Below, piece after piece: positions 952 through 25,184 of a DNA stretch of 64,000 bases. This DNA is from the human T2T-CHM13v2.0 reference genome, Homo sapiens: the NCBI RefSeq assembly GCF_009914755.1, contig NC_060937.1; one strand, 5' to 3'. Numbering within the stretch: position 1 is the stretch's first letter; every line of letters starts with the position of its first letter. Under the pieces are notes generated by a model that was given only the letters and a program-made list of their open reading frames with translations, was not told where the DNA came from and made no database searches. The translations under genes were made by a program, and so were the position numbers.

Positions 952-1408
952 AGTTTGGCCACTCATCAAGGAATACATCAAACAAACACTTTTACAGCTG
1001 ATTGCTTTACAGGATCATAATTTTAATTTCTCAGAGATCTCATTTAGTTTTCTCTACCAGTGATACCTATGACAGTTTCTATTATCAGAATGTCCTGACT
1101 TTAAGCATCAGGGCCCTAACTCAAGTCACCAGAGGCAGCTTGAAGAGGACCTCTGCCTTGGCATGCTGTATGAATGTTTGTGTCCTTAGGGCTGGCCGAG
1201 CAGGGCTCAACCTGGGCACTTTAAAAACATGGTATCTGGCCTGAATTCATGGCCAAGGATATTTGTAAAATGATGTGCTTCTCATTGGGAATAGAAGGCA
1301 CATTAAGGTTGGAGGCAGAGGAGAATGGAAAGCACAGTTCCTATGTTAGCTCAGACAGGAAATGATGGACATTCAATTCCATAAGCCCAGCGTGTGACAG
1401 CATTCTGA

Positions 1409-1737
<329 letters not shown>

Positions 1738-3045
1738 CAAGTTTCTTGATTTTATCTGGATCTTACACCACTTTGAGAATCTGATAAAATATATTGACCT
1801 TTTCCTCAGAAAAATGCATATATCCACAAAATTTTGCATATGATATTAAGTGTTTATGAACCTGGCCTGGCTAACTTTGTATTTTTAGTAGAGACGGGGT
1901 TTCAACATGTGGGCCAGGCTGGTCTCAAACTCCTGACCTCAGGTGATCCACCTGCCTCGGCCTCCCAAAGTGCTGGGATTACAGGCATGAGACACTGTGC
2001 CCAGCCAAGATTCAGTTCTTAGAATGAACCAAAGTGCTCTTTGTCCTGTTTGCTGTCTTGGCATTTCCACTGATGTTAAATCTCAAGAGGTGAAATCTGC
2101 ACACAAATACTCACTGTCACTCAGGAGGACGCAGCTCAGGAGGTAAGGTGGACATCACTGAGTTGGTACAGGTCTTACATGCAAGACAGAAGCCGTGTTC
2201 TGGAGATTTGCTGCTCTTCTTTGGTGTTAAGCCTCTTGCTTTATTAAACAACTAAGTCATGATGAACCATTGGAAGGAGCTGCGCTGTTTCCAGTTTGTC
2301 TGGAGGACATATTAAAAGACTAGTTTCTGGAATACATTTGTGTAACTTAATTTTGTTGATGTTTTCTTATTTGATGTCTAGTAATACTTTTTTTTTTTTT
2401 TTTTTTTTTTGAGATGGAGTTTTGCTCTTGTTGCCCAGGCTGGAGTGCAATGGCAAGATCTCAGCTCACCACAACCTCTGCCTTCTTTTTTCTTCTGTTT
2501 TTAAAACTTGTGGTAAAATCTAGATAACAAAAAGTTTGTCATTTTAACCATTTTTAAGTGGACAGTTCAGTGGCATTAGTTACATTCCCAATGTTGTGTA
2601 ACCACCACTATTATCCATTTCCAGAAGGTTTTCATCACCCGAAACAGAAACTCTGTACCCATTAAATAGTAACTCCCCATTCTACCCTTCTCTCCCTCCA
2701 TAACCTCTGTTTTACCTTCTGCATCCATCAAGTTGCCTGTTATAGATAATTCACATAGAATCATTCAGTATTTGTTTCTTTTTGTATCACGTATCAAAAT
2801 TTCCTTTTTTTTTTTTTGCTTTTGAGACAGTCTTGCTTTGTCGCCCAGGCTGGAGTGCAGGTGCACAACCATGGCTCACTGCAGCCCTCACCTCTCCTGC
2901 TCGAGAGTTCCTCCCACCTCAGCCATCTGAGTAGCTGGGACTACATGTGTGCGCCACCATACCCAACTAATTTTTTGGTTTTTTTTGTACATACGGGGTT
3001 TTGCCATGTGGCCCAGGGTGGTCTCGAACTCCTGGGCTGAAGTGA

Positions 3046-3332
<287 letters not shown>

Positions 3333-3361
3333 TGAGCCACTGCGCCTGGCCTATGCTTTAA

Positions 3362-3865
<504 letters not shown>

Positions 3866-5859
3866 TAGTCTCAAACTCCTGGCCTCAAGCGATCTGCTGG
3901 CCTTGGCCTCCCAAAGTGTAAGGATTACAGGCATGAGCACCGCCCCAGCCCACACCCTTTTGCTTGAGGCACTTTTTTCTTCTTTTTTTTTGAGGCGGAG
4001 TCTTGCTCTTTCGCCCAGGCTGGAGTGCAGTGGCGCTATCTCGAGCCCCGCCTCCCGGGTTCACGACATTCTCCTGCCTCAGCCTCCTGAGTATCTGGGA
4101 CTACCGGCGTCTGCCACCACGCCCAGCTAATTTTTTTTTTGCATTTTTACTAGAGACGGGTTTTCACTGTGTTAGCCAGGATGGACACTTTCTTCTTCCT
4201 TTGGAAATACATCCTCTGGTTTCCCTCCTCCCTCGCTGGCCTCTCCTCTCAGACTCTTCTGCCTGCTCTACTCCAGGTGCATTGAAATGCCCCAGACCTC
4301 TGTGTGGGGAGTCTTCTATGCCACACCCTTCCTAGATGACATCATCTGGCCCTAAGTTTTCAGTATGAGTCAATGTGTTGGTGATGCCCAGATTCCCACC
4401 TCCAGCCCTGATTTCTTCCAAGTGCTCTAGAGTCATATACTTATTTGCCTGCTTGATGTCCCTTCTTGGATGTCAAACAGTCATCTCAAAATTCAACTCT
4501 TGATCCTCTCCCCTGCTCCAAACTTCGCCATCTCAGTAAATGCGTTATATTCCTCCTGGTTGCATAGGCTTCAAACCTAGGAGTCATCCTTGAATAGACC
4601 CTCTTTCTTGCCTCCGCGTTTGAGCTTTCAGCAAGTCCTGTCATTCAGACCATTCACACGTATTGAAAATCCATCCCTTTCTTGCCGTCTTGACTGAACG
4701 TTCTGATGAAGTCGTCACCACTGCTCCCTGGACCTCTGTCCTCACTAACAGCGCTTCCTGTTTCCATTCCTGCTGCTCCAGAGTCCATCCATCTCCTCCC
4801 TTTTCAGAGAGGCTTCTCTGACCACCCTTTGCAATGGCTGCTCCATGGCCCCTGCTAGAACAGGCTGTCATGCTCTTGTGGGTCTGCTTGTATATTTATC
4901 TCTTTTCTGCCTCCACTAGAAGGTGAGCTCTGACAGGGCAGAGGTTCTGGCTGCCTGGTTCCGTGCTGCATTTTCAGAGTCTAGAATAGTGCCTAGCACA
5001 TGGTACGTGATGAGGAAATCTCTTTCCTGATGAATGAGCGAAGCAGAGAATCCTCAGAATCCGAGGATGCTCTCTCTCTGTCTTGGGAGCTAGAGGAACT
5101 CTTCATTTTTCCCTTCATGAATCTGCTCCACTGTCCTTTCTGTTTATTGGCTTCCTCAGTGTTTGGTTTGCCATGGCGCCATCTTGGTCCCATTTCTCAT
5201 GTTCTGCTCAGCTCAAAGCAGTCCACGGGTTCAACTCTCAGTGCCCCAGGAAGGGGAAACCCACTTCACTTGGGTCAAGTGTTCATTTTCCATCCTCCCT
5301 GTCTCCACCCCAATCAGCAAAGGCTAGTGGCTGGTGGTAAAAGGAAGGCTAGTGGCTGGGGGTAAAAGGCCACCAGCAGAGGGGGCTCTCCAGAGGCAGG
5401 CCCATCCCCAGCTCCTCCCGAGTAAGTGCCAATCACCCAGAGGTGGATCCTCTTTCAGGGCCCTGACTTGCAAAGCTGAGGACCAGCTTCCTGTCAGTGG
5501 TAACCCTCAGTGAGGGCCTTGTCTGAGCAGCCAGCAGCCTCTGAGACATTTCCACATGGGCACTGGCTAACTTAAAAAAGATAAGTATTCACCCTTCCCA
5601 GGAGGTACTGATGTCAGGAATAGCCAAGAGTGCAGTCTTGGTCTGTAAGGAGGTGGCCCTTCCACTCCATACGGCCCTTCCCAGGATACTGCTGTATCCT
5701 GGGGTCTGCTCGTGGTGCCAGCAAGCAGGCGTTCCTTGGGAGCCCCCCTCAGCCCTCCCACCCACTGCTGTCCTCTCTCCCTGCCCCCATCTGTGTAAGG
5801 ACCCTCTGATATATGTTCACTTAGTAAGCTGTGTGTGTGTAGTGGGGTGTCTTTGTCAA

Positions 5860-6300
5860 TGATCTGCTCCTTTTCTCTGAAAACTTTAAGGACTTTGATA
5901 TTTTTGGATTCACAATAGTATGTGTAGATGTCAGATTTTCCTCATCTCTCTCCTGTGGCCTCTGTGGGTTCTCTCAGTCTGAGGTCTTTCATCTCTCTTT
6001 AATTCTGGGAAATTAATCTCCATTCTGTCTTCAAATATCACCTCCCTTCCATATTTTCCCCTTCCTTCTGCAACTCCTATTACCTGGATATTAACATTTC
6101 TGTTTCTGTCCTCCATGATTCTAACTTTTTAAGTTATTTTCCTTGTTTTTTTTTTATCCTTTCTTTCCTATCAGAATTTCTCAAGTTGATCTTTCATTTT
6201 CACTAATTCTTTTCTTGACCGTGTCAATTTATTCCATTAATTCTGTTCTGTATGTCAATATTATATTTTTTACCCTGATCTTTCCACTTGGCTCTTCTGT
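5860..6300 (-). mobile_element. Ancient L1/HAL1 ORF1 fragment
   Basis: ORF 5931..6116 EDRNRNVNIQVIGVAEG...IFEDRMEINFPEL resembles the L1 ORF1p RRM region. Confidence 0.6.
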
Positions 6301-6364
6301 ATGGTTTGTTGTTTTTGTGACATGGTCATGGCGGTGTGGGTTGTGGTGGGAGGGGGTTACCCCC

Positions 6365-7078
<714 letters not shown>

Positions 7079-7674
7079 ACACGCTAGAGTGGAAAGTCCC
7101 AGGCACCAAGGCTTCCCACCCTAGAAGCAAGCTCAGGGCTTTCTCTTCATCCTTCCAGGGAGAGCACTGAGAGATGATGGGGGGTTGGCAGGGGGCATCC
7201 CTTGGATTATCATTCTCCAGACTTAGGCTTGGAGGGGAGGGTGGAGAAGTGGATTTCTGGGTCTGGTCCACCTCACCTGTTTTCTCAGCTTCTCACCCAC
7301 TCAGAGCTCTTGCCCCAATTCTCCCTTTCATCCTGCAGATCCCTGCGCCTGACTCATCTCAGGCGAGGAGGCAAATCATCAGTTATCTCAGGCAGCAGCA
7401 GGACGAGACTCCTTTCTGATTTTCTCCTTCCCTGGCCACCTCTCCCCACCCCATATTCACTCATTCCAAACCTCTGGCCTCCCCAGCAACTCTACATCCT
7501 CATCTCCATCTGTTCCCTCTCTCGATGCTGTGGGTGACGTTGGAGAGGGAAGCCCGGAGCCCTGACCTAGTCCGGCGTGGAGAGAGGAATGGAAAGCAGT
7601 GTCCCTTTTGAGAAGGCAAATTTACAGCTGGCTTTTGTAATCCTAGCTATTTTTTGTTTGTTTGCTAAGTCTTT

Positions 7675-7830
7675 GATAGTCCCCAGTGTGGTTTGTCTGC
7701 CAGTGATCTCAGCACCACCAGAGAGCTTGTTAGAAATGCGGCATCCCAACCCCACCACAGCCCTCCCAAGTCAGATACTGCCACCTCACGAGGCCCCCCA
7801 GGGATCCACAAGTTCATTAAAGTTTCAGGA
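7675..7830. mobile_element. MER5A-like DNA transposon remnant
   Basis: cagcaccaccagagagcttgttagaaatgc... motif typical of MER5A. Confidence 0.55.
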
Positions 7831-8050
7831 ATCCAATTCTACTACAAAATATACATTTATAATTAGGAAAAGGATAGTTTCTTTTAAATGGTAGAACTTC
7901 CCCAATGAGTCAGCTACCTGTATTTCTGGCCTGTCAGGCTAGACACTGGAGACCATTCTGCATAGAATTGTACCTCCCTGAACTACTGTTAGGCCTTAGG
8001 GTGGGGATTCATCTTTCCCTTCTCCCCACCATGGAGACAAAATCCTCTTA

Positions 8051-9638
<1,588 letters not shown>

Positions 9639-17941: not shown

Positions 17942-18121
<180 letters not shown>

Positions 18122-18394
18122 TTAGCCAGGCATGGTGGCAGATGCCTGTAATCCCAGCTATTTGGGAGGCTGAGGCAGGTGCCATCCCAGCCAACATGGC
18201 ACCATCCCAGCCAGCATGGTGCTATCCCAGAAAATATGGCACCATTCTAACCAACATGGCACCACCCCAGCCTCAGGTATTCCTTTATAGCAATACGAAT
18301 GGACTAAGACACTGGCATAGCAATAACACTAATAAATATATATTGACTGAATGAAAGAACAAACATGTTATCTTTCTGAAAGAATATATTTTTT

Positions 18395-18685
18395 GGCCAG
18401 GCTTGGTGGCTCACGCCTGTAATCCCAGCACTTTGGGAGGCCGAGGCGGGTGGATCACGAGGTCAGGAGATCGAGACCATCCTGGCTAACATGGTGAAAC
18501 CCCATCTCTACTAAAAACACACACAAAAAAAATTAGCCGGGCATGGTGGCAAGCATCTGTAGTCCCAGCTACTTGGGAAGCTGAGGCAGGAGAATGGTGT
18601 AAGCTTGCAGTGAGCAGAGATGGGCTTACTGCACTCCAGCCTGGGTGACAGAGCAAGACTCCGTCTCAAAAAAAGAAAAAGAAGA
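18395..18685 (+). mobile_element. AluY-like element
   Basis: Diagnostic gagatcgagaccatcctggctaac segment. Confidence 0.85.
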
Positions 18686-18880
18686 ATGTATTTTTTACAA
18701 CACAATCAAATCAATGCCTTAAAACTAGGCTGTCATCACATTTTTCCCCCCGTTTTACATACTTAAATTGGCTAAATCAAGAATAGGGGCTGGCTCTCAG
18801 TCCCTACCTCGTGGGGGGTGCCTCCCCTCCCTGCGATGGGGGTCCTAAGAGCCTGGGGCGGAAGAGGGGCTGGCTCTCAG

Positions 18881-19490
18881 CCACCACAAAATGGGGAGCC
18901 TTTATGTTCAGGTTTTGCCCAAGAGTCAGCTTATTTGCTTCTGGTACTAGCAGGGCAGTTGATGCCGTGGCCTTCAAACATGGGGGCCATCCTTTAGAAA
19001 CCCTTTCTATTTGTTTAGACACGTAGGCCACCGGCCTCAGCCAGGGCCCCAGAGTTTCGGTTAAAATTCCAGCTGCCATCTTTTCTCTATCTGACGCATT
19101 CAATGGAAAAGGCTTTGTCAGATCTGGTAGCCCCGGGGCTGGGGCTGCCAGAAGTTTTTCCTTTAACTCATGAAAGACTTGCTGTTGTTGGGATCCCCAT
19201 TCTAAAGGTTCCCGGTCCCCGCCCCCTTTGTGACCTCATACAAAGACTTGGCTAATACTGCAAAGTTTGGGATGCACAGTCTACAAAACCCCACAGCCCC
19301 TAAGAATTCCCTCACCTGCCTTCTGCCCTTAGGCTCCGGTAGATTGCAAATGACCTGCTTTCTTTCTGTTCCCGGGCGTTTGGACCCCTGTCTTGGACCG
19401 CTGTCGGATAGTAAATCCCAAGTAAGGTACCTGCCGTCGGCAGATTTGAGCTTTCTTCTTGGACACCTAATACCCAGAGTCCTCCAGGTG
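18881..19490 (-). mobile_element. ERV1 (HERV-E-like) pol fragment, copy 1 (RT thumb/connection), non-coding
   Basis: Translates to gammaretroviral pol: ...RQVREFLGAVGFCRL...PVAYVSKQ..VSKGWPPCL...[14 protein letters not shown]. Confidence 0.85.
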
Positions 19491-20271
19491 GGTCCTTAAG
19501 GTTCCTGGGATCCGCCATGGGGGTCCTAAGCCAGTGGGGGATGAGGGGCTGGCTCTCAGTCCCCGCCTTGCTGGGGGTGCCCCCCCCCCCTGCGATGGGG
19601 GCCCTAAGAGCCAGGGGGGTAAGAAGGGCTGGCTCTCAGTCCCCGCCTCGTGGGGGGTGCCTCTCCCTCCTGCGCTGGGGGCCCTGAGAGCCAGTGGGGG
19701 AGAGGGGCTGGCTCTCAGTCCCTGCCTTGTTGGGGGTGCCTCCCCCCCTGCGATGGGGGTCCTGAGAGCCAGGGGGGAAGAGGGGCTGGCTCTCAGTACC
19801 TGCCTCATTGGGGGTGCCTCCATGCCCTGCGATGGGTGACCTAAGAGCCAGGGGGGGAAGAGGGGCTGGCTCTCAGTCCCCACCTCGTGGGGGGTGCCTC
19901 CCCCTCTGCGATGGGGGTCCTAAGAGCCGGTGGCAGAATAGGGGCTGCCTCTGCGTCCCTGCCTCGTGGGGGGTGCCTCCGCCTCCTGGGATGGTGGTCC
20001 TAAGAGCCAGAGGGGGAAGAGGGGCTGGCTCTCAGTCCCTGCCTCGTGGGGGGTGCCTCCCCCCCCTGCGATGGGGGTCGTGAGAGCCGGGCGGGATGAG
20101 GGGCTGGCTCTCAGTCCCCTCCTCGCGGGGGGTGCCTCCCCCCCGGCGATGGGGGCCCTGAGAGCCAGAGGGGAAGAGAGGCTGGCTCTCAGTCCCTGCC
20201 TTGTTGGGGGTGCCATCCCCCCCGCGATGGGGGTCCCAAGAGCCAGGGGGGGAAAAGGGGCTGGCTCTCAG
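19491..20271. repeat. ~79-bp GC-rich satellite block (~9 full units), SATR-like
   Basis: Unit aggggctggctctcagtccctgcctcgtggggggtgcctccccccctgcgatgggggtcctaagagccagggggggaag, with starts near 19544, 19625, 19703, 19781, 19861, 19940, 20020, 20099 and 20178. Confidence 0.9.
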
Positions 20272-20867
20272 CCACCACAAAATGGGGGGCCTTTATGTTC
20301 AGGTTTTTCCCAAGAGTCAGCTTATTTGCTTCTTTAATTAGCAGGGCAGTTGCTGCCAAGGCCCTCAAACAGGGGAGCCATCCTTCAGTAACCCTGTCTA
20401 GTTGTTCAGAGACGTAGGCCACCGGCCTCAGCCAGGGCCCCACAGTTTGGGTTAAAAGTCCAGCTGCCATCTTTTCTGTCTATAACGCATACAATGGAAA
20501 AGGCTTTGTCAGATCGGGTATCCCCAGGGCTGGGGCTGCCAGACATTTTTCCTTTAACTCATGAAAGACTTGCTGTTATTGGGTTCCCCATTCCAAAGGT
20601 TCCGGTCCACGCCCCCTTTGTGACCTCATACAAAGGCTTGGCTAATACTGCAAAGTTTGGGATGAACAGTCTACAAAACCCCACAGCCCCTGAGAATTCC
20701 CTCACCTGCCTTCTGCCCTTAGGCTCCGGTAGATTGCAAATGACCTGCTTTCTTTCTGTTCCCGGGCGGCATCGGACCCGTCGGAGAGTAAATCCCAAGT
20801 AAGGTACCTGCCGTTGGCAGATTTGAGCTTTCTTCTTGGACACCTAATACCCACAGTCCTCCAGGTG
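20272..20867 (-). mobile_element. HERV-E-like pol fragment, copy 2
   Basis: ORFs 20559..20843 (SKKKAQIC..QVPYLGF..RQVREFSGAVGFCRLFIPNFAVLAKPLYEVTKG) and 20189..20470. Confidence 0.85.
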
Positions 20868-20935
20868 AGTCCTAAGTATCTTAGGATCCGCGATGGGGGT
20901 CCTAAGGCAGGGGGGGAAGAGGGGATGGCTGTCAC

Positions 20936-21532
20936 CCAACCCAAAATGGGCGGCCTTTATGTTCAGGTTTTGCCCAAGAGTCAGCTTATTTGCTTCTTGT
21001 ACTATCAGGGCAGTTGATGCCACGGCCCTCAAACAGGGGGGCCATCCTTTAGAAACCCTCTCTAGTTGTTTAGACAACTAGGCCACCGGCCTCAGCCAGG
21101 GCCCCAGAGTTTCGGTTAAAAGTCCAGCTGCCATCTTTTCTCTATCTGACGCATTCAATGGAAAAGGCTTTGTCAGATCGGGTAGCCCCGGGGCTGGGGC
21201 TGCCAGAAGTTTTTCCTTTAACTCCTGAAAGACTTTTTGTTCTTGGGATCCCCATTCCAAAGGTTCCGTTCCCCGCCCCCTTTGTGACCTCATACAAAGG
21301 CTTGGCTAATACTGCAAAGTTTGGGATCCAGTCTACAAAACCACACAGCTCCCAAGAATTCCCTTACCTGCCTTCTGCCCTTAGGCTCCGGTAGATTGTA
21401 AATAACCTGCTTTCTTTCTGTTCCCGGGCTGCGTTCGGACCCCTGTCGGATAGTAAATCCCAAGCAAGGTACCTGCCGTCAGCAGATTTGAGCTTTCTTC
21501 TTGGACACCTAATACCCACAGTCCTCCAGGTG
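20936..21532 (-). mobile_element. HERV-E-like pol fragment, copy 3
   Basis: ORFs 20844..21077 and 21078..21293 (EWGSQEQKVFQELKEKLLAAPAPGLPDLTKPF). Confidence 0.85.
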
Positions 21533-22150
21533 GGTCCTAAGGTTCTTAGGATCCTTGATGGAGGTCCTAAGCTGTGGGGGACGGGGGGCTGGCTCTCAGT
21601 CCCCGCCTCGTGGGGGGTGCCTCCCCCCCCTGCGATGGGGGCCCTGAGAGCCAGGGGGGAAGAGGGGCTGGCTCTCAGTCCCTGCCTCGTTGGGGGTGCC
21701 TCCCCCGCTGCGATGGGTGTCCTAAGAGCCAGGGGGGAAGAGGGGCTGGCTCTCAGTCCCAGCCTCGTGGGGGGTGCCTCCCCCCCTGCGATGGGGGTCC
21801 TAAGAGCCGGTGGCGGAAGAGGGGCTGCCTCTGAGTCCCTGCCTCGTGGGGGGTGCCTCCCCCCCCTGCGATGGGGGTCCTGAGAGCCGGGGAGGATGAG
21901 GGGCTGGCTCTCAGTCCCCGCCTCGTGGGGGGTGCCTCCCCCCCTGCGATGGGGGCCCTGAGAGCCAGGGGGGAAGAGGGGCTGGCTCTCAGTCCCTGCC
22001 TCGTTGGGGGTGCCTCCCCCCCTGCGATGGGGGTCCTAAGAGCCTGGGGCGGAAGAGGGGCTGGCTCTCAGTCCGTGCCTGGCGGGGGGTGCCTCCCCCC
22101 CTGCGATGGGGGTCCCGAGAGCCAGCGGGGGAAAAGGGGCTGACTCTCAG
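21533..22150. repeat. ~79-bp GC-rich satellite block (~7 full units)
   Basis: Same unit in tandem. Confidence 0.9.
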
Positions 22151-22749
22151 CCACCACAACATGGGGGGCCTTTATGTTCAGGTTTTGCCCAAGAGTCAGC
22201 TGATTTGCTTCTTGTACTAGCAGGGCAGTTGCTGCCAAGGCCCTCAAACAGGGGAGCCATCCTTCAGAAACCCTGTCTAGTTGTTCAGAGACGTAGGCCA
22301 CCGGCCTCAGCCAGGGCCCCACAGTTTGGGTTAAAAGTCCAGCTGCCATCTTTTCTCTCTCTAACGCATACAATGGAAAAGGCTTTGCCAGATCGGGTAG
22401 CCCCGGGGCTGGGGCTGCCAGAAGTTTTTCCTTTAACTCCTGAAAGACTTTCTGTTCTTGGGATCCCCATTCCAAAGGTTCCGGTCCCCGCCCCCTTTGT
22501 GACCTCATACAAAGGCTTGGCTAATACTGCAAAGTTTGGGATCCACAGTCTATAAAACCCCACAGCTCCCAAGAATTCCCTTACCTGCCTTCTGCCCTTA
22601 GGCTCCGGTAGATTGTAAATAACCTGCTTTCTTTCTGTTCCCGGGCTGCGTTCGGACCCCTGTCGGATAGTAAATCCCAAGCAAGGTACCTGCCGTCAGC
22701 AGATTTGAGCTTTCTTCTTGGACACCTAATACCCACAGTCCTCCAAGTG
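22151..22749 (-). mobile_element. HERV-E-like pol fragment, copy 4
   Basis: ORFs 22068..22508 and 22285..22680. Confidence 0.85.
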
Positions 22750-23772
22750 GGTCCTAAGGTTCTTAGGATCCTTGATGGGGGTCCTAAGCTGTGGGGGACG
22801 GGGGGCTGGCTCTCAGTCCCTGCCTCCCGGGGGGTGCCTCCCCCCCTGCGATGGGGGCCCTGAGAGCCAGGGGGCAAGAGGGGCTGGCTCTCAGTCCCTG
22901 CCTCGTTGGGGGTGTCTCCCCGCCTTCGATTGGTGTCCTAAGAGCCAGGGGGAGAAGAGGGGCTGGCTCTCAATCCCTGCATCGTTAGGGGTGCCTTCCC
23001 CCCTGCGATTGGTGTCCTAAGAGCCAGGGGGGGAAGAGGGGCTGGCTCTCAGTCCCCGCCTCGTAGGGGGTGCCTCCCCCCCTGAGATGGGGGTCCTAAG
23101 AGCCGGGGGCGGAAGAGGGGCTGCCTCTGAGTCCCTGCCTCGTGGGGGGTGCCTCCCCCTCCCCTCCTGCGATGGTGGTCCTAAGAGCCAGAGGGGGAAG
23201 AGGGGCTGGCTCTCAGTCCCTGCCTCACGGGGGGTGCCTCCCCCCCCCTGCGATGGTGGTCCTAAGAGCCAGAGGGGGAAGAGGGGCTGGCTCTCAGTCC
23301 CCGCCTCGTGGGGGGTGCCTCCCCCCCTGCGATGGGGGTCCTGAGAGCCAGGGGGGAAGAGGGGCTGGCTCTCAGTCCCTGCCTCGTTGGGGGTGCCTCC
23401 CCCCCCTGCGATTGTTGTCCTAAGAGCCAGGGGGAGAAGAGGGGCTGGCTCTCAGTCCCCGCCTCGTGGGGGGTGCCTCCCCCGCTGCGATGGGGGTCCT
23501 AAGAGCCGGGGGCGGAACAGGGGCTGCCTCTGAGTCCCTGCCTCGTGGGGGGTGCCTCCCCCTCCTGCGATGGTGGTCCTAAGAGCCAGAGGGGGAAGAG
23601 GGGCTGGCTCTGAGTCTCCGCCTCGCGGGGGTTGCCTCCCCCCCTGCGATGGGGGTCCTAAGAGCCTGGGGCGGAAGAGAGGCTGGCTCTCAGTCCGTGC
23701 CTCGCAGAGGGTGTCATCGCCCCTGCGATGGGGGTCCCAAGAGCCAGCGGGGGAAAAGGGGCTGACTCTCAG
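22750..23772. repeat. ~79-bp GC-rich satellite block (~12 full units)
   Basis: Same unit in tandem. Confidence 0.9.
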
Positions 23773-24372
23773 CCACCACAAAATGGGGAGCCTTTATGTT
23801 CAGGTTTTGCCCAAGAGTCAGCTTATTTGCTTCTTGTACTAGCAGGGCAGTTGCTGCCAAGGCCCTCAAACAGGGGAGCCATCCTTCAGAAACCCTGTCT
23901 AGTTGTTCAGAGACGTAGGCCACCGGCCTCAGCCAGGGCCCCACAGTTTGGGTTAAAAGTCCAGCTGCCATCTTTTCTCTCTCTAACGCATACAATGGAA
24001 AAGCCTTTGCCAGATCGGGTAGCCCCAGGGCTGGGGCTGCCAGAAGTTTTTCCTTTAACTCCTGAAAGACTTTCTGTTCTTGGGATCCCCATTCCAAAGG
24101 TTCCCGGTCCCCGCCCCCTTTGTGACCTCATACAAAGGCTTGGCTAACACTGCAAAGTTTGGGATGCACAGTCTATAAAACCCCACAGCCCCTGAGAATT
24201 CCCTCACCTGCCTTCTGCCCTTAGGCTCCGGTAGATTGCAAATGACCTGCTTTCTTTCTGTTCCCGGGCTGCGTTCGGACCCCTGTCGGATAGTAACTCC
24301 CAAGTAAGGTACCTGCCGTCGGCAGATTGGAGCTTTCTTCTTGGAGACCTAATACCCACAGTCCTCCAGGTG
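23773..24372 (-). mobile_element. HERV-E-like pol fragment, copy 5
   Basis: ORFs 23714..24097 and 24055..24303. Confidence 0.85.
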
Positions 24373-24440
24373 GGTCCTAAGGATCTTAGGATCCGCGATG
24401 GGGGTCCTAAGGCAGGGGGGGAAGAGGGGTTGGCTGTCAT

Positions 24441-25041
24441 CCAACCCAAAATGGGCGGCCTTTATGTTCAGGTTTTGCCCAAGAGTCAGCTTATTTGCTT
24501 CTTGTACTATCAGGGCAGTTGATGCCACGGCCCTCAAACATGAGGGGCCATCCTTTAGAAACCCTCTCTAGTTGTTTAGAGACGTAGGCCACCGGCCTCA
24601 TCCAGGGCCCCAGAGTTTCGGTTAAAAGTCCAGCTGCCATCTTTTCTCTATCTGACGCATTCAATGGAAAAGGCTTTGTCAGATCGGGTAGCCCCAGGGC
24701 TGGGGCTGCCAGAAGTTTTTCCTTTAACTCATGAAAGACTTGCTGTTGTTGGGATCCCCATTCCAAAGGTTCCCGGTCCCCGTCCCCTTTGTGACCTCAT
24801 ACAAAGGCTTGGCTAATACTGCAAAGTTTGGGATGCACAGTCTACAAAACCCCACAGCCCCTAAGAATTCCCTCACCTGCCTTCTGCCCTTAGGCTCCGG
24901 TAGATTGCAAATGACCTGCTTTCTTTCTGTTCCCGGGCTGCGTTCGGACCCCTGTCGGAGAGTAAATCCGAAGTAAGGTAGCTGCCGTCGGCAGATTTGA
25001 GCTTTTTTCTTGGACACCTAATACCCACAGTCCTCCAGATG
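24441..25041 (-). mobile_element. HERV-E-like pol fragment, copy 6
   Basis: ORFs 24491..24766 and 24724..25017. Confidence 0.85.
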
Positions 25042-25184
25042 GGTCCTAAGGTTCTTAGGATCCGCAATGGGGGTCCTAAGCCAGGGGGTGATGAGGGGCT
25101 GGCTCTCAGTCCCTGCCTCGTGGGGGGTGCCTCCCCCTCCTGCGATGGTGGTCCTAAGAGCCAGAGGGGGAAGAGGGGTGCACA

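What the first reader, a model, noticed from the sequence alone, without database searches (positions are those of the whole stretch)
18785..25178. LTR-less composite array: six copies of one retroviral RT fragment interleaved with a hairpin satellite
Seen: one ~600-bp pol segment recurs six times (18881, 20272, 20936, 22151, 23773, 24441), with the same boundaries and orientation each time. Satellite blocks of about 1, 9, <1, 7, 12, <1 and 1 units of a ~79-bp repeat flank and separate the copies. There is no LTR, gag, YxDD motif, RNase H, integrase or env. Knowledge: the translation is gammaretroviral, HERV-E-like RT thumb/connection, and proviruses do not normally occur as a fixed internal fragment amplified in tandem. 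Inference: a satellite captured a retroviral fragment and the chimeric unit was then amplified as a macrosatellite. It may be copy-number polymorphic, with paralogues elsewhere. An RNA-level role (for example as a small-RNA source against HERV-E) is possible but unproven. I cannot confirm from here that the element is undescribed.
Basis: partly seen in the sequence, partly recalled or inferred. Interest (0 to 1): 0.88.

Follow-up and report, generated by a model that had tools for sequence, protein, structure and literature searches.

The report
Old HERV-E fragment and satellite array
An ancient, non-coding tandem array made of one piece of a retroviral polymerase gene and a hairpin-forming satellite sits in human chromosome 13, belongs to a small family of such arrays scattered over five chromosomes, and supplies five repeated exons of the long non-coding RNA TPT1-AS1.

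Summary
Window 18781-25178 holds six ~600-bp copies of one gammaretroviral RT fragment. Its coding sense is on the minus strand. The copies are separated by 1.4, 9.8, 0.6, 7.7, 12.7, 0.6 and 1.5 units of a 79-bp, 70% G+C hairpin repeat. No other retroviral part lies in the 64-kb window.

The array is neither unique nor recent. The same chimeric unit, with the same two junctions, forms arrays at about 13 other places on chr3, 7, 9, 12 and 13. At chr3:8.67 Mb the array lies inside a published "SATR-HERVE-SATR" (SES) element of the Xiao/DA duplicons. The 79-mer is homologous to the G+C-rich repeat at one SES end. The family therefore descends from one rearranged SES, and the chr13/chr7 arrays are a derived clade.

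Units within the window differ by 3-10%, so this is an old, decayed array and not a homogeneous macrosatellite.

The one role shown by the annotation is exon supply. The antisense pol tail of units 1-5 forms five of the 11 TPT1-AS1 exons. Unit 6 has lost the GT donor.

I judge it a new variant of a known kind, of modest interest. An antisense or small-RNA role is untested.

The parts
18781..18880 (.). 79-bp G+C-rich hairpin repeat, 1.4 units; left end of the array
   Evidence: BLAST with the satellite; sequence
18881..19490 (-). pol unit 1 (type alpha): RT thumb/connection fragment, coding sense on the minus strand, frame broken
   Evidence: RT_RNaseH_2; tree
19517..20271 (.). 79-bp repeat block, 9.6-9.8 units
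20272..20867 (-). pol unit 2 (type beta)
20890..20934 (.). 0.6 unit of the 79-bp repeat between units 2 and 3
20936..21532 (-). pol unit 3 (type alpha)
21557..22150 (.). 79-bp repeat block, 7.3-7.7 units
22151..22749 (-). pol unit 4 (type beta); matches MLV RT at E 1.3e-37 and 1.3e-14
22774..23772 (.). 79-bp repeat block, 12.6-12.7 units
23773..24372 (-). pol unit 5 (type beta)
24395..24439 (.). 0.6 unit of the 79-bp repeat between units 5 and 6
24441..25041 (-). pol unit 6 (type alpha); the GT splice donor at its end reads AT
25064..25178 (.). 79-bp repeat, 1.5 units; right end of the array
19333..19487 (+). TPT1-AS1 exon from the antisense tail of unit 1 (acceptor cccttag|GCT, donor CAG|gtgggt at the pol/satellite junction)
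   Evidence: hub annotation NR_024458.1
20723..20864 (+). TPT1-AS1 exon from unit 2
   Evidence: hub annotation
21385..21529 (+). TPT1-AS1 exon from unit 3
   Evidence: hub annotation
22671..22746 (+). TPT1-AS1 exon from unit 4; uses an internal acceptor (ggatag|TAA) and donor CAA|gt
   Evidence: hub annotation
24225..24369 (+). TPT1-AS1 exon from unit 5
   Evidence: hub annotation

Best explanation
The array is a decayed, non-coding composite tandem repeat. Its unit is a ~600-bp piece of a HERV-E-type pol gene (end of palm, thumb and most of the connection domain), lying antisense on the + strand, joined at two fixed breakpoints to a 79-bp G+C-rich hairpin repeat of the SATR satellite group.

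Shown:
- The unit arose once. The same two junctions occur at every locus.
- It is built from parts of the SES (SATR-HERVE-SATR) element that flanks the Xiao/DA duplicons.
- It exists inside such an element at chr3:8.67 Mb. There the unit still carries a third ~600-bp SES piece, which I call modB.
- A derived form without modB makes up the chr13 and chr7 arrays, including this one.

Inferred:
- Arrays grew by unequal exchange or replication slippage, and shrank by microhomology deletions.
- Whole arrays or pieces of them were copied to new sites by DNA-level duplicative transposition and segmental duplication, not by retrotransposition.
- This happened roughly when the Xiao elements spread (about 25-14 million years ago according to PMC2700803), with later local duplications.

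What it does at this locus:
- Shown by the annotation plus sequence: on the + strand each unit carries a pyrimidine tract with an AG acceptor, and a CAG|GT donor exactly at the pol/satellite junction. Units 1-5 are spliced into TPT1-AS1 as five repeated exons, 663 nt in all. Unit 6 lost the donor and gives no exon.
- Inferred: the G-run-rich satellite just downstream of each donor may help exon definition, as intronic GGG runs are known to do.
For: Structure and protein identity.

Family:
- A whole-genome DNA search found full-length matches at 10 other loci (58 matches from 40 scored of 283 candidates).
- The pol|satellite junction motif has 58 hits against 1 in the reversed control, at 13-14 places. 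These include all 6 window units.
- The satellite|pol junction motif has 32 hits against 0 in the control.

Origin:
- At chr3:8.67 Mb, SES positions 1258-5647 and 5048-8677 flank the array, so the end units run on into the rest of the element.
- modB equals SES L038 8289-8857.
- The 79-mer matches L038 8798-9318 at 72-74% over several units, and one L036 unit at 90%.
- PMC2700803 (passages and Table 1 read) names SES and lists Xiao elements at 3p-8, 13q-45.9 and 13q-63 Mb. By approximate coordinates these are three of the array loci.

Polarity:
- In the tree of 35 array units plus 4 SES copies, the 27 chr13+chr7 units form one clade (support 100/98). The chr3 units sit unresolved at the base with SES.
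- The chr3, chr12 and chr9 junctions keep SES-like bases that chr13 and chr7 have changed.

Age:
- K2P distance within the window is 0.032-0.097 (mean 0.066, 15 pairs), against 0.054 between SES copies (6 pairs).
- CpG observed/expected is 0.26-0.38 despite 70% G+C in the satellite.

No retrotransposition marks:
- Array ends fall at different points of the unit at 8 loci examined. None has an LTR or a shared terminus, and I saw no clear poly(A) tail or target-site duplication; one right flank (c13_62.96) begins with a run of T, which I did not follow up.
- The window flanks are unique apart from Alus.
- Short units on chr12 and chr7 are microhomology deletions.

Exons:
- All 5 annotated exons start at an AG and end at a GT in register with the units. 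Exon lengths of 155, 142 and 145 nt follow unit-specific indels. Unit 6 reads CAG|AT.
- There are 4-7 GGG runs in the first 120 nt of each downstream intron.
Against: - The branch that separates array units from SES copies is weak (support 48/77). Descent from SES therefore rests mainly on the chr3 anatomy and the shared satellite and modB. The reverse order (SES copies having lost an array) is not excluded.
- No orthologous empty site was available, so the mode of arrival at this locus is inferred only from the absence of retrotransposition marks.
- The window's alpha units cluster with one another, and so do its beta units, not with positional counterparts at other loci. Either the array grew in place or gene conversion erased the history.
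- The HERV-E and SATR names come from the literature and approximate coordinate matches. No Dfam or RepeatMasker run was possible.
- The dates use a distance comparison with SES copies plus published PCR dating, not a calibrated clock.
- The help of G-runs in splicing is inference from general knowledge.
- The genome search scores only the best candidates, so locus counts are lower bounds.
Confidence: 0.75

Rival explanations
1. The array is a functional antisense module. Through its five exons, TPT1-AS1 carries about 660 nt complementary to HERV-E pol mRNA. It pairs with HERV-E or SES transcripts, or yields small RNAs, and so restrains them.
For: - The exons are antisense to pol and about 88-94% identical to SES/HERV-E copies.
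- Five exons from five units are kept in a BestRefSeq transcript (hub annotation).
- The splice signals are intact in units 1-5.
Against: - No expression, small-RNA or dsRNA data could be consulted.
- The exon RNAs fold no better than shuffles (z +1.03, +1.14, +0.52, -0.44).
- No Rfam family matches inside the array.
- Units have drifted 3-10% with indels and one lost donor, as expected without constraint.
- In the held library, only 4 papers hold both 'TPT1-AS1' and 'transposable element'. Going by their titles and abstract openings alone, none concerns this array or HERV-E.
Confidence: 0.1
2. It is a copy-number-variable macrosatellite that acts on chromatin or as a regulatory element (boundary, enhancer or non-B-DNA hotspot), as D4Z4- or DXZ4-type arrays do.
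For: - It has a tandem composite structure.
- It has strong hairpin potential.
- It has 140 G-runs of four or more in 6.4 kb.
- The SATR repeats of the parent element mark rearrangement breakpoints at 8p23.1 (PMC5088589, passages read).
Against: - Units are 3-10% diverged, with uneven satellite blocks, unlike homogenised macrosatellites.
- CpG observed/expected of 0.26-0.38 argues for long-term methylation and against a CpG island.
- None of the RefSeq functional elements listed in the hub table lies between 18785 and 25178; the table notes one further enhancer whose place it does not give.
- There are only six units.
Confidence: 0.1
3. It is an assembly artefact of T2T-CHM13 in a repetitive region.
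For: G+C-rich tandem repeats are hard to sequence. The macaque T2T preprint reports read dropout in such repeats (10.1101/2025.08.04.668424, passages read).
Against: - The six units differ by 3-10% and carry unit-specific indels. These are mirrored in the lengths of the cDNA-based RefSeq exons: 155, 142, 145, 76 and 145 nt.
- Arrays with the same junctions occur at about 13 other places.
Confidence: 0.02
4. It is a non-autonomous retroelement, SVA-like or an LTR-less retrocopy, that spread through an RNA copy.
For: - It is dispersed to unique sites on five chromosomes.
- The published Xiao/DA work reports target-site duplications of 4-9 bp at most Xiao loci and raises retrotransposition as a possibility (PMC2700803, passages read).
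Against: - At the 8 loci inspected I saw no shared terminus, no LTR and no clear poly(A) tail or target duplication. One right flank (c13_62.96) begins with a run of T, and another (c9_77.05) has a T-run about 60 nt in that resembles an Alu tail; neither was followed up. The ends fall at arbitrary points of the satellite or of pol.
- The introns (satellite blocks) are retained between the exon-bearing units, so these are not spliced copies.
Confidence: 0.05

Closest known systems
SES (SATR-HERVE-SATR) flanking element of the Xiao and DA composite duplicons (Ji & Zhao 2008, recalled only; Li et al. 2009, PMC2700803, passages and Table 1 read)
   Same: - The pol fragment is 88-94% identical to the HERV-E part of four SES copies.
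- The 79-mer and modB are homologous to the repeat and the adjoining segment at one SES end.
- One array (chr3:8.67 Mb) lies inside an SES. Three array loci match listed Xiao loci by approximate coordinates (3p-8, 13q-45.9, 13q-63).
   Different: - The window has only 600 bp of the roughly 4.5-kb HERV-E part.
- It has none of the 76-bp A+T-richer SATR arrays and no Xiao core.
- The fragment is repeated six times with two junctions that normal SES copies lack: 7 of the last 11 bases of the 24-nt junction motif differ.
- The window locus is not among the 30 published Xiao/DA loci.
SATR1, SATR2 and the G+C-rich variant SATR1v (Hoyt et al. preprint 10.1101/2021.07.12.451456; macaque T2T preprint 10.1101/2025.08.04.668424; passages read)
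   Same: It is a satellite with a 76-79-bp period, tied to HERV-E/ERV1 and to Xiao. A G+C-rich variable-length variant next to a ~589-bp SATR1 piece is described in macaque, which resembles the 79-mer plus modB seen here.
   Different: Identity with SATR1v could not be tested, because no Dfam library is available here and the supplements are closed. The published core units do not mention a pol fragment.
Composite tandem arrays / TE-derived macrosatellites of T2T-CHM13 (Hoyt et al. preprint, section 6 part 1 read)
   Same: It is a repeating unit built from a TE piece plus satellite, arrayed in tandem, probably expanded by unequal crossing-over. It is found both as arrays and as single units on several chromosomes.
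   Different: - The text names only ACRO_Comp, LSAU-BETA and TELO_Comp as multi-chromosome composites. This family is not mentioned.
- The units here are old and diverged, not near-identical.
Harlequin (mosaic HERV-E-backbone provirus; Vargiu et al. 2016, PMC4724089, passages read)
   Same: It is HERV-E-derived and rearranged. One paper describes Harlequin as a HERV with simple repeats inserted (PMC2700803).
   Different: Harlequin is LTR2-flanked and a mosaic of several ERV families with env. None of that is present here.
TE exonisation into lncRNAs
   Same: Cryptic splice sites on the antisense strand of an ERV piece give cassette exons.
   Different: Here one exon type is repeated five times in one transcript because its source is a tandem array. 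The donor sits exactly at the TE/satellite junction.

Membership tests
Canonical HERV-E provirus | Two LTRs flanking the internal region | tested here: not met
   The only bracketing direct repeat is an Alu pair (family D7). No shared terminal sequence at 8 array loci.
Canonical HERV-E provirus | gag, pro, full pol (with the YxDD active site, RNase H and integrase) and env | tested here: not met
   The match to MLV RT covers only chain residues 245-435 of 4mh8_A. 0 of 56 flanking ORFs hit any Pfam family. No other SES/HERV-E DNA lies in the 64 kb.
Gammaretrovirus-type RT (sequence kinship of the fragment) | Best similarity to gammaretroviral RT thumb and connection | tested here: met
   The top PDB hits are MLV/XMRV-type RT at E 1.3e-37 and 1.3e-14. 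Foamy virus and Ty3 RTs are far weaker. Pfam RT_RNaseH_2 scores above its cut-off.
SES (SATR-HERVE-SATR) element of Xiao/DA | About 4.5 kb of HERV-E flanked on both sides by SATR1/SATR2 arrays | tested here: not met
   The window holds only SES positions about 5048-5647 (six times) and the repeat homologous to L038 8798-9318. It derives from SES and is not a member.
SATR1 / SATR1v satellite | Match to the Dfam/Repbase SATR consensus | not testable with these tools
   No Dfam or RepeatMasker here. There is only indirect homology to the repeats of SES elements, which the literature calls SATR (PMC2700803).
Composite array in the sense of Hoyt et al. | [quoted passage not shown] | tested here: inconclusive
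   The window unit has two components (pol piece and 79-mer array). The chr3, chr12 and chr9 units have three (pol, 79-mer, modB).
Macrosatellite | High identity between units and copy-number polymorphism | tested here: not met
   Identity between units is 90-97% (K2P 0.032-0.097), so the first half of the feature is not met. Polymorphism is not testable here.
Retrotransposed composite (SVA-like) | Poly(A) tail, target-site duplication and defined termini | tested here: not met
   The ends are heterogeneous, with no clear A-tail and no target duplication at 8 loci. No empty site was available to confirm this.
TE-derived lncRNA exons | Annotated exons bounded by AG/GT within the TE copy | tested here: met
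   5 of 5 array exons of NR_024458.1 have an AG acceptor and a GT donor in register with units 1-5. Unit 6 has AT in place of GT and no exon.

The most novel reading that the evidence does not exclude
The arrays of pol fragment plus 79-mer are an unrecognised composite satellite family. It moves as ready-made DNA arrays, for example through excised circles or break repair at its hairpin and G-rich repeats, to unique sites. Because every unit is a pre-formed cassette exon (the acceptor in antisense pol, the donor at the junction, G-run intron enhancers in the satellite), it seeds multi-exon repeat modules in host lncRNAs. TPT1-AS1 would then be a lncRNA whose core is a five-fold antisense HERV-E pol repeat, able to pair with HERV-E/SES transcripts or to bind one protein in several copies.
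Probability: 0.12. Interest if true: 0.6.

Novelty: new variant of a known kind. Interest (0 to 1): 0.35.

Why it matters
- It links an odd-looking array to a known but little-studied source: the SATR-HERVE-SATR ends of the Xiao/DA duplicons, which mark rearrangement breakpoints at 8p23.1 and elsewhere. That element has spawned a secondary family of arrays at unique sites.
- It explains the exon structure of TPT1-AS1, a much-cited cancer lncRNA. Five of its 11 exons (663 nt) are paralogous antisense HERV-E pol pieces. This affects primer, probe, siRNA and read-mapping specificity for the gene, and also 'miRNA sponge' claims that rest on repeated sites.
- It is a clean example of a TE/satellite junction creating a splice donor.
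- It is not a new kind of element.

Tried and rejected
- The satellite as amplified neighbouring pol sequence: rejected. A protein alignment ran on into the first satellite unit ('RWLS'). The DNA comparison with an SES copy shows that homology stops at the fragment borders and that the real pol continues differently.
- Harlequin: rejected (passages of PMC4724089).
- An RNA/splicing origin for the junctions and for the short chr12 units that start at the exon acceptor: rejected. The GT is retained after CAG. The short units join satellite to pol at a GGCT(C) microhomology, with satellite blocks kept between them.
- Target-site duplication or shared termini: none seen.
- Structured RNA in the exons: no signal.
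- Known RNA families: only Alu-derived SRP and mir-1268 hits in the left flank, plus one chance hit.
- CpG island: rejected.
- Literature searches found no description of this array family and no link between TPT1-AS1 and HERV-E. Ji & Zhao 2008 is not in the library, and the supplements of the Hoyt preprint (Table S2) are closed, so a prior description there cannot be excluded.
- Earlier findings of this scan were not open.
The tree therefore has only four SES copies as outgroup.

Full report
**1. The observation**

Tandem Repeats Finder reports three long 79-bp arrays: 19517-20271 (9.6 copies, 83% matches), 21576-22150 (7.3 copies, 90%) and 22774-23772 (12.6 copies, 85%). The repeat finder gives six in-register copies of a non-satellite segment with start-to-start spacings of 1391, 664, 1215, 1622 and 669 bp. 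BLAST with copy 1 and with a satellite block gives the full map (locus coordinate + 13999 = window coordinate):

- satellite 1.4 units
- pol 18881-19490
- satellite 9.8 units
- pol 20272-20867
- satellite 0.6 units
- pol 20936-21532
- satellite 7.7 units
- pol 22151-22749
- satellite 12.7 units
- pol 23773-24372
- satellite 0.6 units
- pol 24441-25041
- satellite 1.5 units, ending at 25178

The reading frame of the fragment is on the minus strand. Two ORF pieces of unit 4 match Moloney MLV reverse transcriptase 4mh8_A. Chain residues 316-435 match at E 1.3e-37 and residues 245-349 at E 1.3e-14. Pfam finds RT_RNaseH_2, the connection domain, in 2 of 4 pieces. From memory of the MLV RT domain map, this is the end of the palm, the thumb and most of the connection, starting just after the YVDD motif. 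The two pieces lie in different frames in the copies I read, so no copy can encode the stretch in one frame.

The satellite unit folds as DNA into an 11-bp stem around a G6/C6 stem. The z-scores in four folds are -3.05, -2.75, -0.79 and -3.89. The satellite blocks are about 70% G+C.

**2. No other retroviral part is here**

Two complete SES/HERV-E elements were compared by BLAST with the whole 64-kb window. They hit only the six pol units, one stretch of satellite and Alu-like sequence. None of 56 flanking stop-to-stop ORFs matched any Pfam family. Those 56 were taken from the 83 ORFs listed; I left out the shorter overlapping ones. The only direct repeat that brackets the array is an Alu pair (family D7).

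**3. The array is one of a family**

A DNA search of the window's own assembly with unit 1 plus its satellite edges returned full-length matches (query 1-661, 88-93% identity) in clusters at ten other loci (58 matches from 40 scored of 283 candidates):

- chr13: 45.69, 62.96, 63.06 and 79.93 Mb
- chr3: 8.67 Mb
- chr12: 9.39 and 31.0 Mb
- chr7: 151.2 and 155.2 Mb
- chr9: 77.05 Mb

It also returned single matches limited to the pol part (query 20-631) at other loci. After fetching these loci, the same map-making showed arrays of the same unit with the same borders at all ten.

A 24-nt motif spanning the pol|satellite junction, with up to 3 mismatches, occurs 58 times in the genome against once for the reversed control:

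| Place | Hits |
|---|---|
| chr3:8.67 | 3 |
| chr7:151.2 | 12 |
| chr7:155.2 | 8 |
| chr12:9.39 | 3 |
| chr12:31.0 | 6 |
| chr13:44.6 (this window) | 6 |
| chr13:45.69 | 4 |
| chr13:62.96 | 4 |
| chr13:63.06 | 6 |
| chr13:79.93 | 2 |
| chr9:77.05 | 1 |
| chr9:42.19 | 1 |
| chr9:80.50 | 1 |
| chr5:149.33 (doubtful, 3 mismatches) | 1 |

The opposite junction (satellite|pol) occurs 32 times against 0 in the control, at the same loci plus chr9:140.35. Two fixed junctions at all loci mean that the chimeric unit arose once.

**4. Where the unit came from**

The single pol-only matches lie in long elements (7.4-7.5 kb shared at 91-94% between L035, L037 and L038). In these, about 4.5 kb of retroviral sequence is flanked by long 75-76-bp tandem arrays. 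At one end there is a short 78-bp G+C-rich array.

The literature names this structure. "SES" stands for SATR-HERVE-SATR, the conserved flanking element of the Xiao (~30 kb) and DA (~300 kb) composite duplicons, where SATR means satellites SATR1 and SATR2 (PMC2700803, passages read; PMC5088589, passages read). The listed loci 2p-71, 11q-67 and 3q-127 fit my loci L036, L038 and L037 by approximate coordinates.

Three results tie the arrays to SES:

- At chr3:8.67 Mb, SES positions 1258-5647 lead into the array and positions 5048-8677 lead out of it. The first and last pol units are therefore continuous with the rest of the element. The repeated piece is exactly SES 5048-5647.
- The arrays on chr3, chr12 and chr9 carry a further ~600-bp module (modB) between satellite blocks. 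It equals SES 8289-8857, the segment next to the G+C-rich repeat.
- The window's 79-mer is homologous to that G+C-rich repeat. It matches L038 8798-9318 at 72-74% over 528-539 aligned bases, L035 950-1179, and one L036 unit at 90%.

Homology between a window unit and an SES copy stops sharply at both borders of the fragment. The true pol sequence continues differently beyond them. The satellite is therefore not amplified neighbouring pol.

Table 1 of PMC2700803 lists Xiao elements at 3p-8, 13q-45.9 and 13q-63 Mb (hg18). By approximate coordinates these are three of the array loci. The window locus is not listed.

**5. Order of events**

I built a maximum-likelihood tree of the 35 full-length array units and 4 SES copies, using 600 columns.

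- All 27 chr13 and chr7 units fall in one clade (support 100/98).
- The three chr12 units form a second clade (99/96).
- Three chr3 units and the chr9 unit are unresolved at the base. The fourth chr3 unit, which is continuous with the SES body, groups with an SES copy (96/82).
- The branch between SES and the arrays is weak (48/77).

At the satellite|pol junction, chr3, chr12 and chr9 keep the bases of the SES copy, while chr13 and chr7 share changes. The simplest reading has three steps:

1. A rearrangement inside one SES made the unit pol-79mer-modB.
2. Loss of modB gave the chr13/chr7 form.
3. Arrays were then copied onward.

Within the derived clade there are two unit types. In the window the order is alpha, beta, alpha, beta, beta, alpha. 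The two tight pairs (0.6-unit spacer) are both beta-alpha. The chr13:63.06 array shows the same beta-alpha pairs. The window's alpha units still cluster with each other, and so do its beta units. Either the array grew in place from a small seed or gene conversion has acted.

**6. How the arrays moved**

- The chr7 pair are inverted segmental duplicates, with 2-kb flanks 96-98% identical.
- The chr13 62.96/63.06 pair share a flank at 99.3%.
- The window's flanks match no other locus beyond Alus.

At the 8 loci inspected, array ends fall at different points of the satellite or of pol. There is no shared terminus or LTR, and I saw no clear poly(A) tail or target duplication. The c13_62.96 right flank does begin with a run of T, which I did not pursue. 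Short units on chr12 (the last 159 bp of pol) and chr7 (the last 77 bp) are joined to satellite at microhomologies, and satellite blocks remain between them. This points to DNA-level copying and deletion, not retrotransposition. The actual mechanism at this locus is not shown.

**7. Age**

| Comparison | Pairs | Mean K2P | Range |
|---|---|---|---|
| Between the six window units | 15 | 0.066 | 0.032-0.097 |
| Window to other arrays | 174 | 0.086 | |
| Window to SES | 24 | 0.084 | |
| SES to SES | 6 | 0.054 | |

(All.)

Xiao elements were dated by PCR to have emerged 25-18 and peaked 25-14 million years ago (PMC2700803, abstract and passages). By comparison of distances, the alpha/beta split is at least that old and the youngest local duplication (units 4 and 5) is roughly half that. 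This is inference, not a calibrated date.

CpG observed/expected is 0.26-0.38 throughout despite the high G+C. That fits long methylation and decay and does not fit a CpG island.

**8. What it does here**

The hub annotation places five of the 11 exons of TPT1-AS1 (NR_024458.1, + strand) inside the array. In an alignment of the six units, the exons of units 1, 2, 3 and 5 begin at the same AG, after a pyrimidine-rich tract (...cctgccttctgcccttag|GCT). They end at the same CAG|GT, which lies exactly at the pol/satellite junction.

- Unit 4 uses an AG 69 nt further in and the same donor.
- Unit 6 reads CAG|AT and has no exon.
- The exon lengths of 155, 142 and 145 nt follow unit-specific indels.

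This also argues that the six units are real and not an assembly artefact, because the RefSeq model is cDNA-based. The five exons add up to 663 nt.

Each donor is followed by 4-7 GGG runs within 120 nt. Intronic G-runs near donors are known splicing enhancers (general knowledge), so the satellite may help exon definition. This is inferred.

The exon RNAs do not fold better than shuffles (z +1.03, +1.14, +0.52, -0.44). No Rfam family matches inside the array.

**9. Comparison with what is known, and novelty**

The parts are known: a HERV-E-type pol, SATR-group satellite and the SES element. A G+C-rich SATR1 variant (SATR1v) next to a 589-bp SATR1 piece is described in macaque and credited to the T2T-CHM13 repeat work (10.1101/2025.08.04.668424 and 10.1101/2021.07.12.451456, passages read). 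The 79-mer may be that variant, but I could not test it.

In seven searches of the paper library I found no description of the pol-plus-79-mer arrays as a family, and none of the HERV-E origin of the TPT1-AS1 exons. The part I read (part 1 of 2) of the composite-element section of the T2T repeat preprint names other multi-chromosome composites and not this one. I therefore rate it a new variant of a known kind, with modest interest (0.35).

**10. Verdict**

- The array is an old SES-derived composite repeat, one of about 13 such places in the genome.
- It is non-coding, and its one documented role is the supply of five paralogous antisense-pol exons to TPT1-AS1.
- The antisense or small-RNA idea remains open at low probability.

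Noticed in passing
L024 (chr13:45.69 Mb) 2532-3228 and 3700-4397: Two pol units are internally rearranged. Query positions 338-610 are followed directly by positions 1-440, a permuted or overlapping join. It is present twice, so it was duplicated after the rearrangement.
   Followed up: no
L030-L033 (chr7:151.2 and 155.2 Mb): Two arrays about 4 Mb apart are inverted segmental duplicates (flanks 96-98% identical over 2 kb). They differ in unit number (5 versus 3 full units). Both hold many mini-units made of only the last 62-77 bp of pol plus satellite.
   Followed up: partly
L021 and L022/L023 (chr13:62.96 and 63.06 Mb): An inverted pair of arrays about 100 kb apart shares a flank at 99.3% identity. 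It probably represents the two ends of the published '13q-63 Mb' Xiao locus.
   Followed up: partly
L028, L029 (chr12:9.39 and 31.0 Mb): The short units start exactly at the base where the TPT1-AS1-type exon starts. This is explained by a GGCT(C) microhomology between satellite and pol, not by splicing.
   Followed up: yes
window 18000-18669: Alu-derived sequence lies directly left of the array, with sub-threshold Rfam hits to SRP RNA and mir-1268. A 20-bp tandem repeat (4.6 copies) lies at 18182-18272.
   Followed up: no
hub table, masked stretches: None of the ~600-bp pol units or the 0.6-1.0-kb satellite blocks appears among the 20 longest masked stretches (the shortest listed is 333 bp). 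NCBI's soft-masking therefore seems to leave the array largely unmasked. This says nothing about whether Dfam knows it.
   Followed up: no
The chr5 hit has 3 mismatches and may be chance.
   Followed up: no
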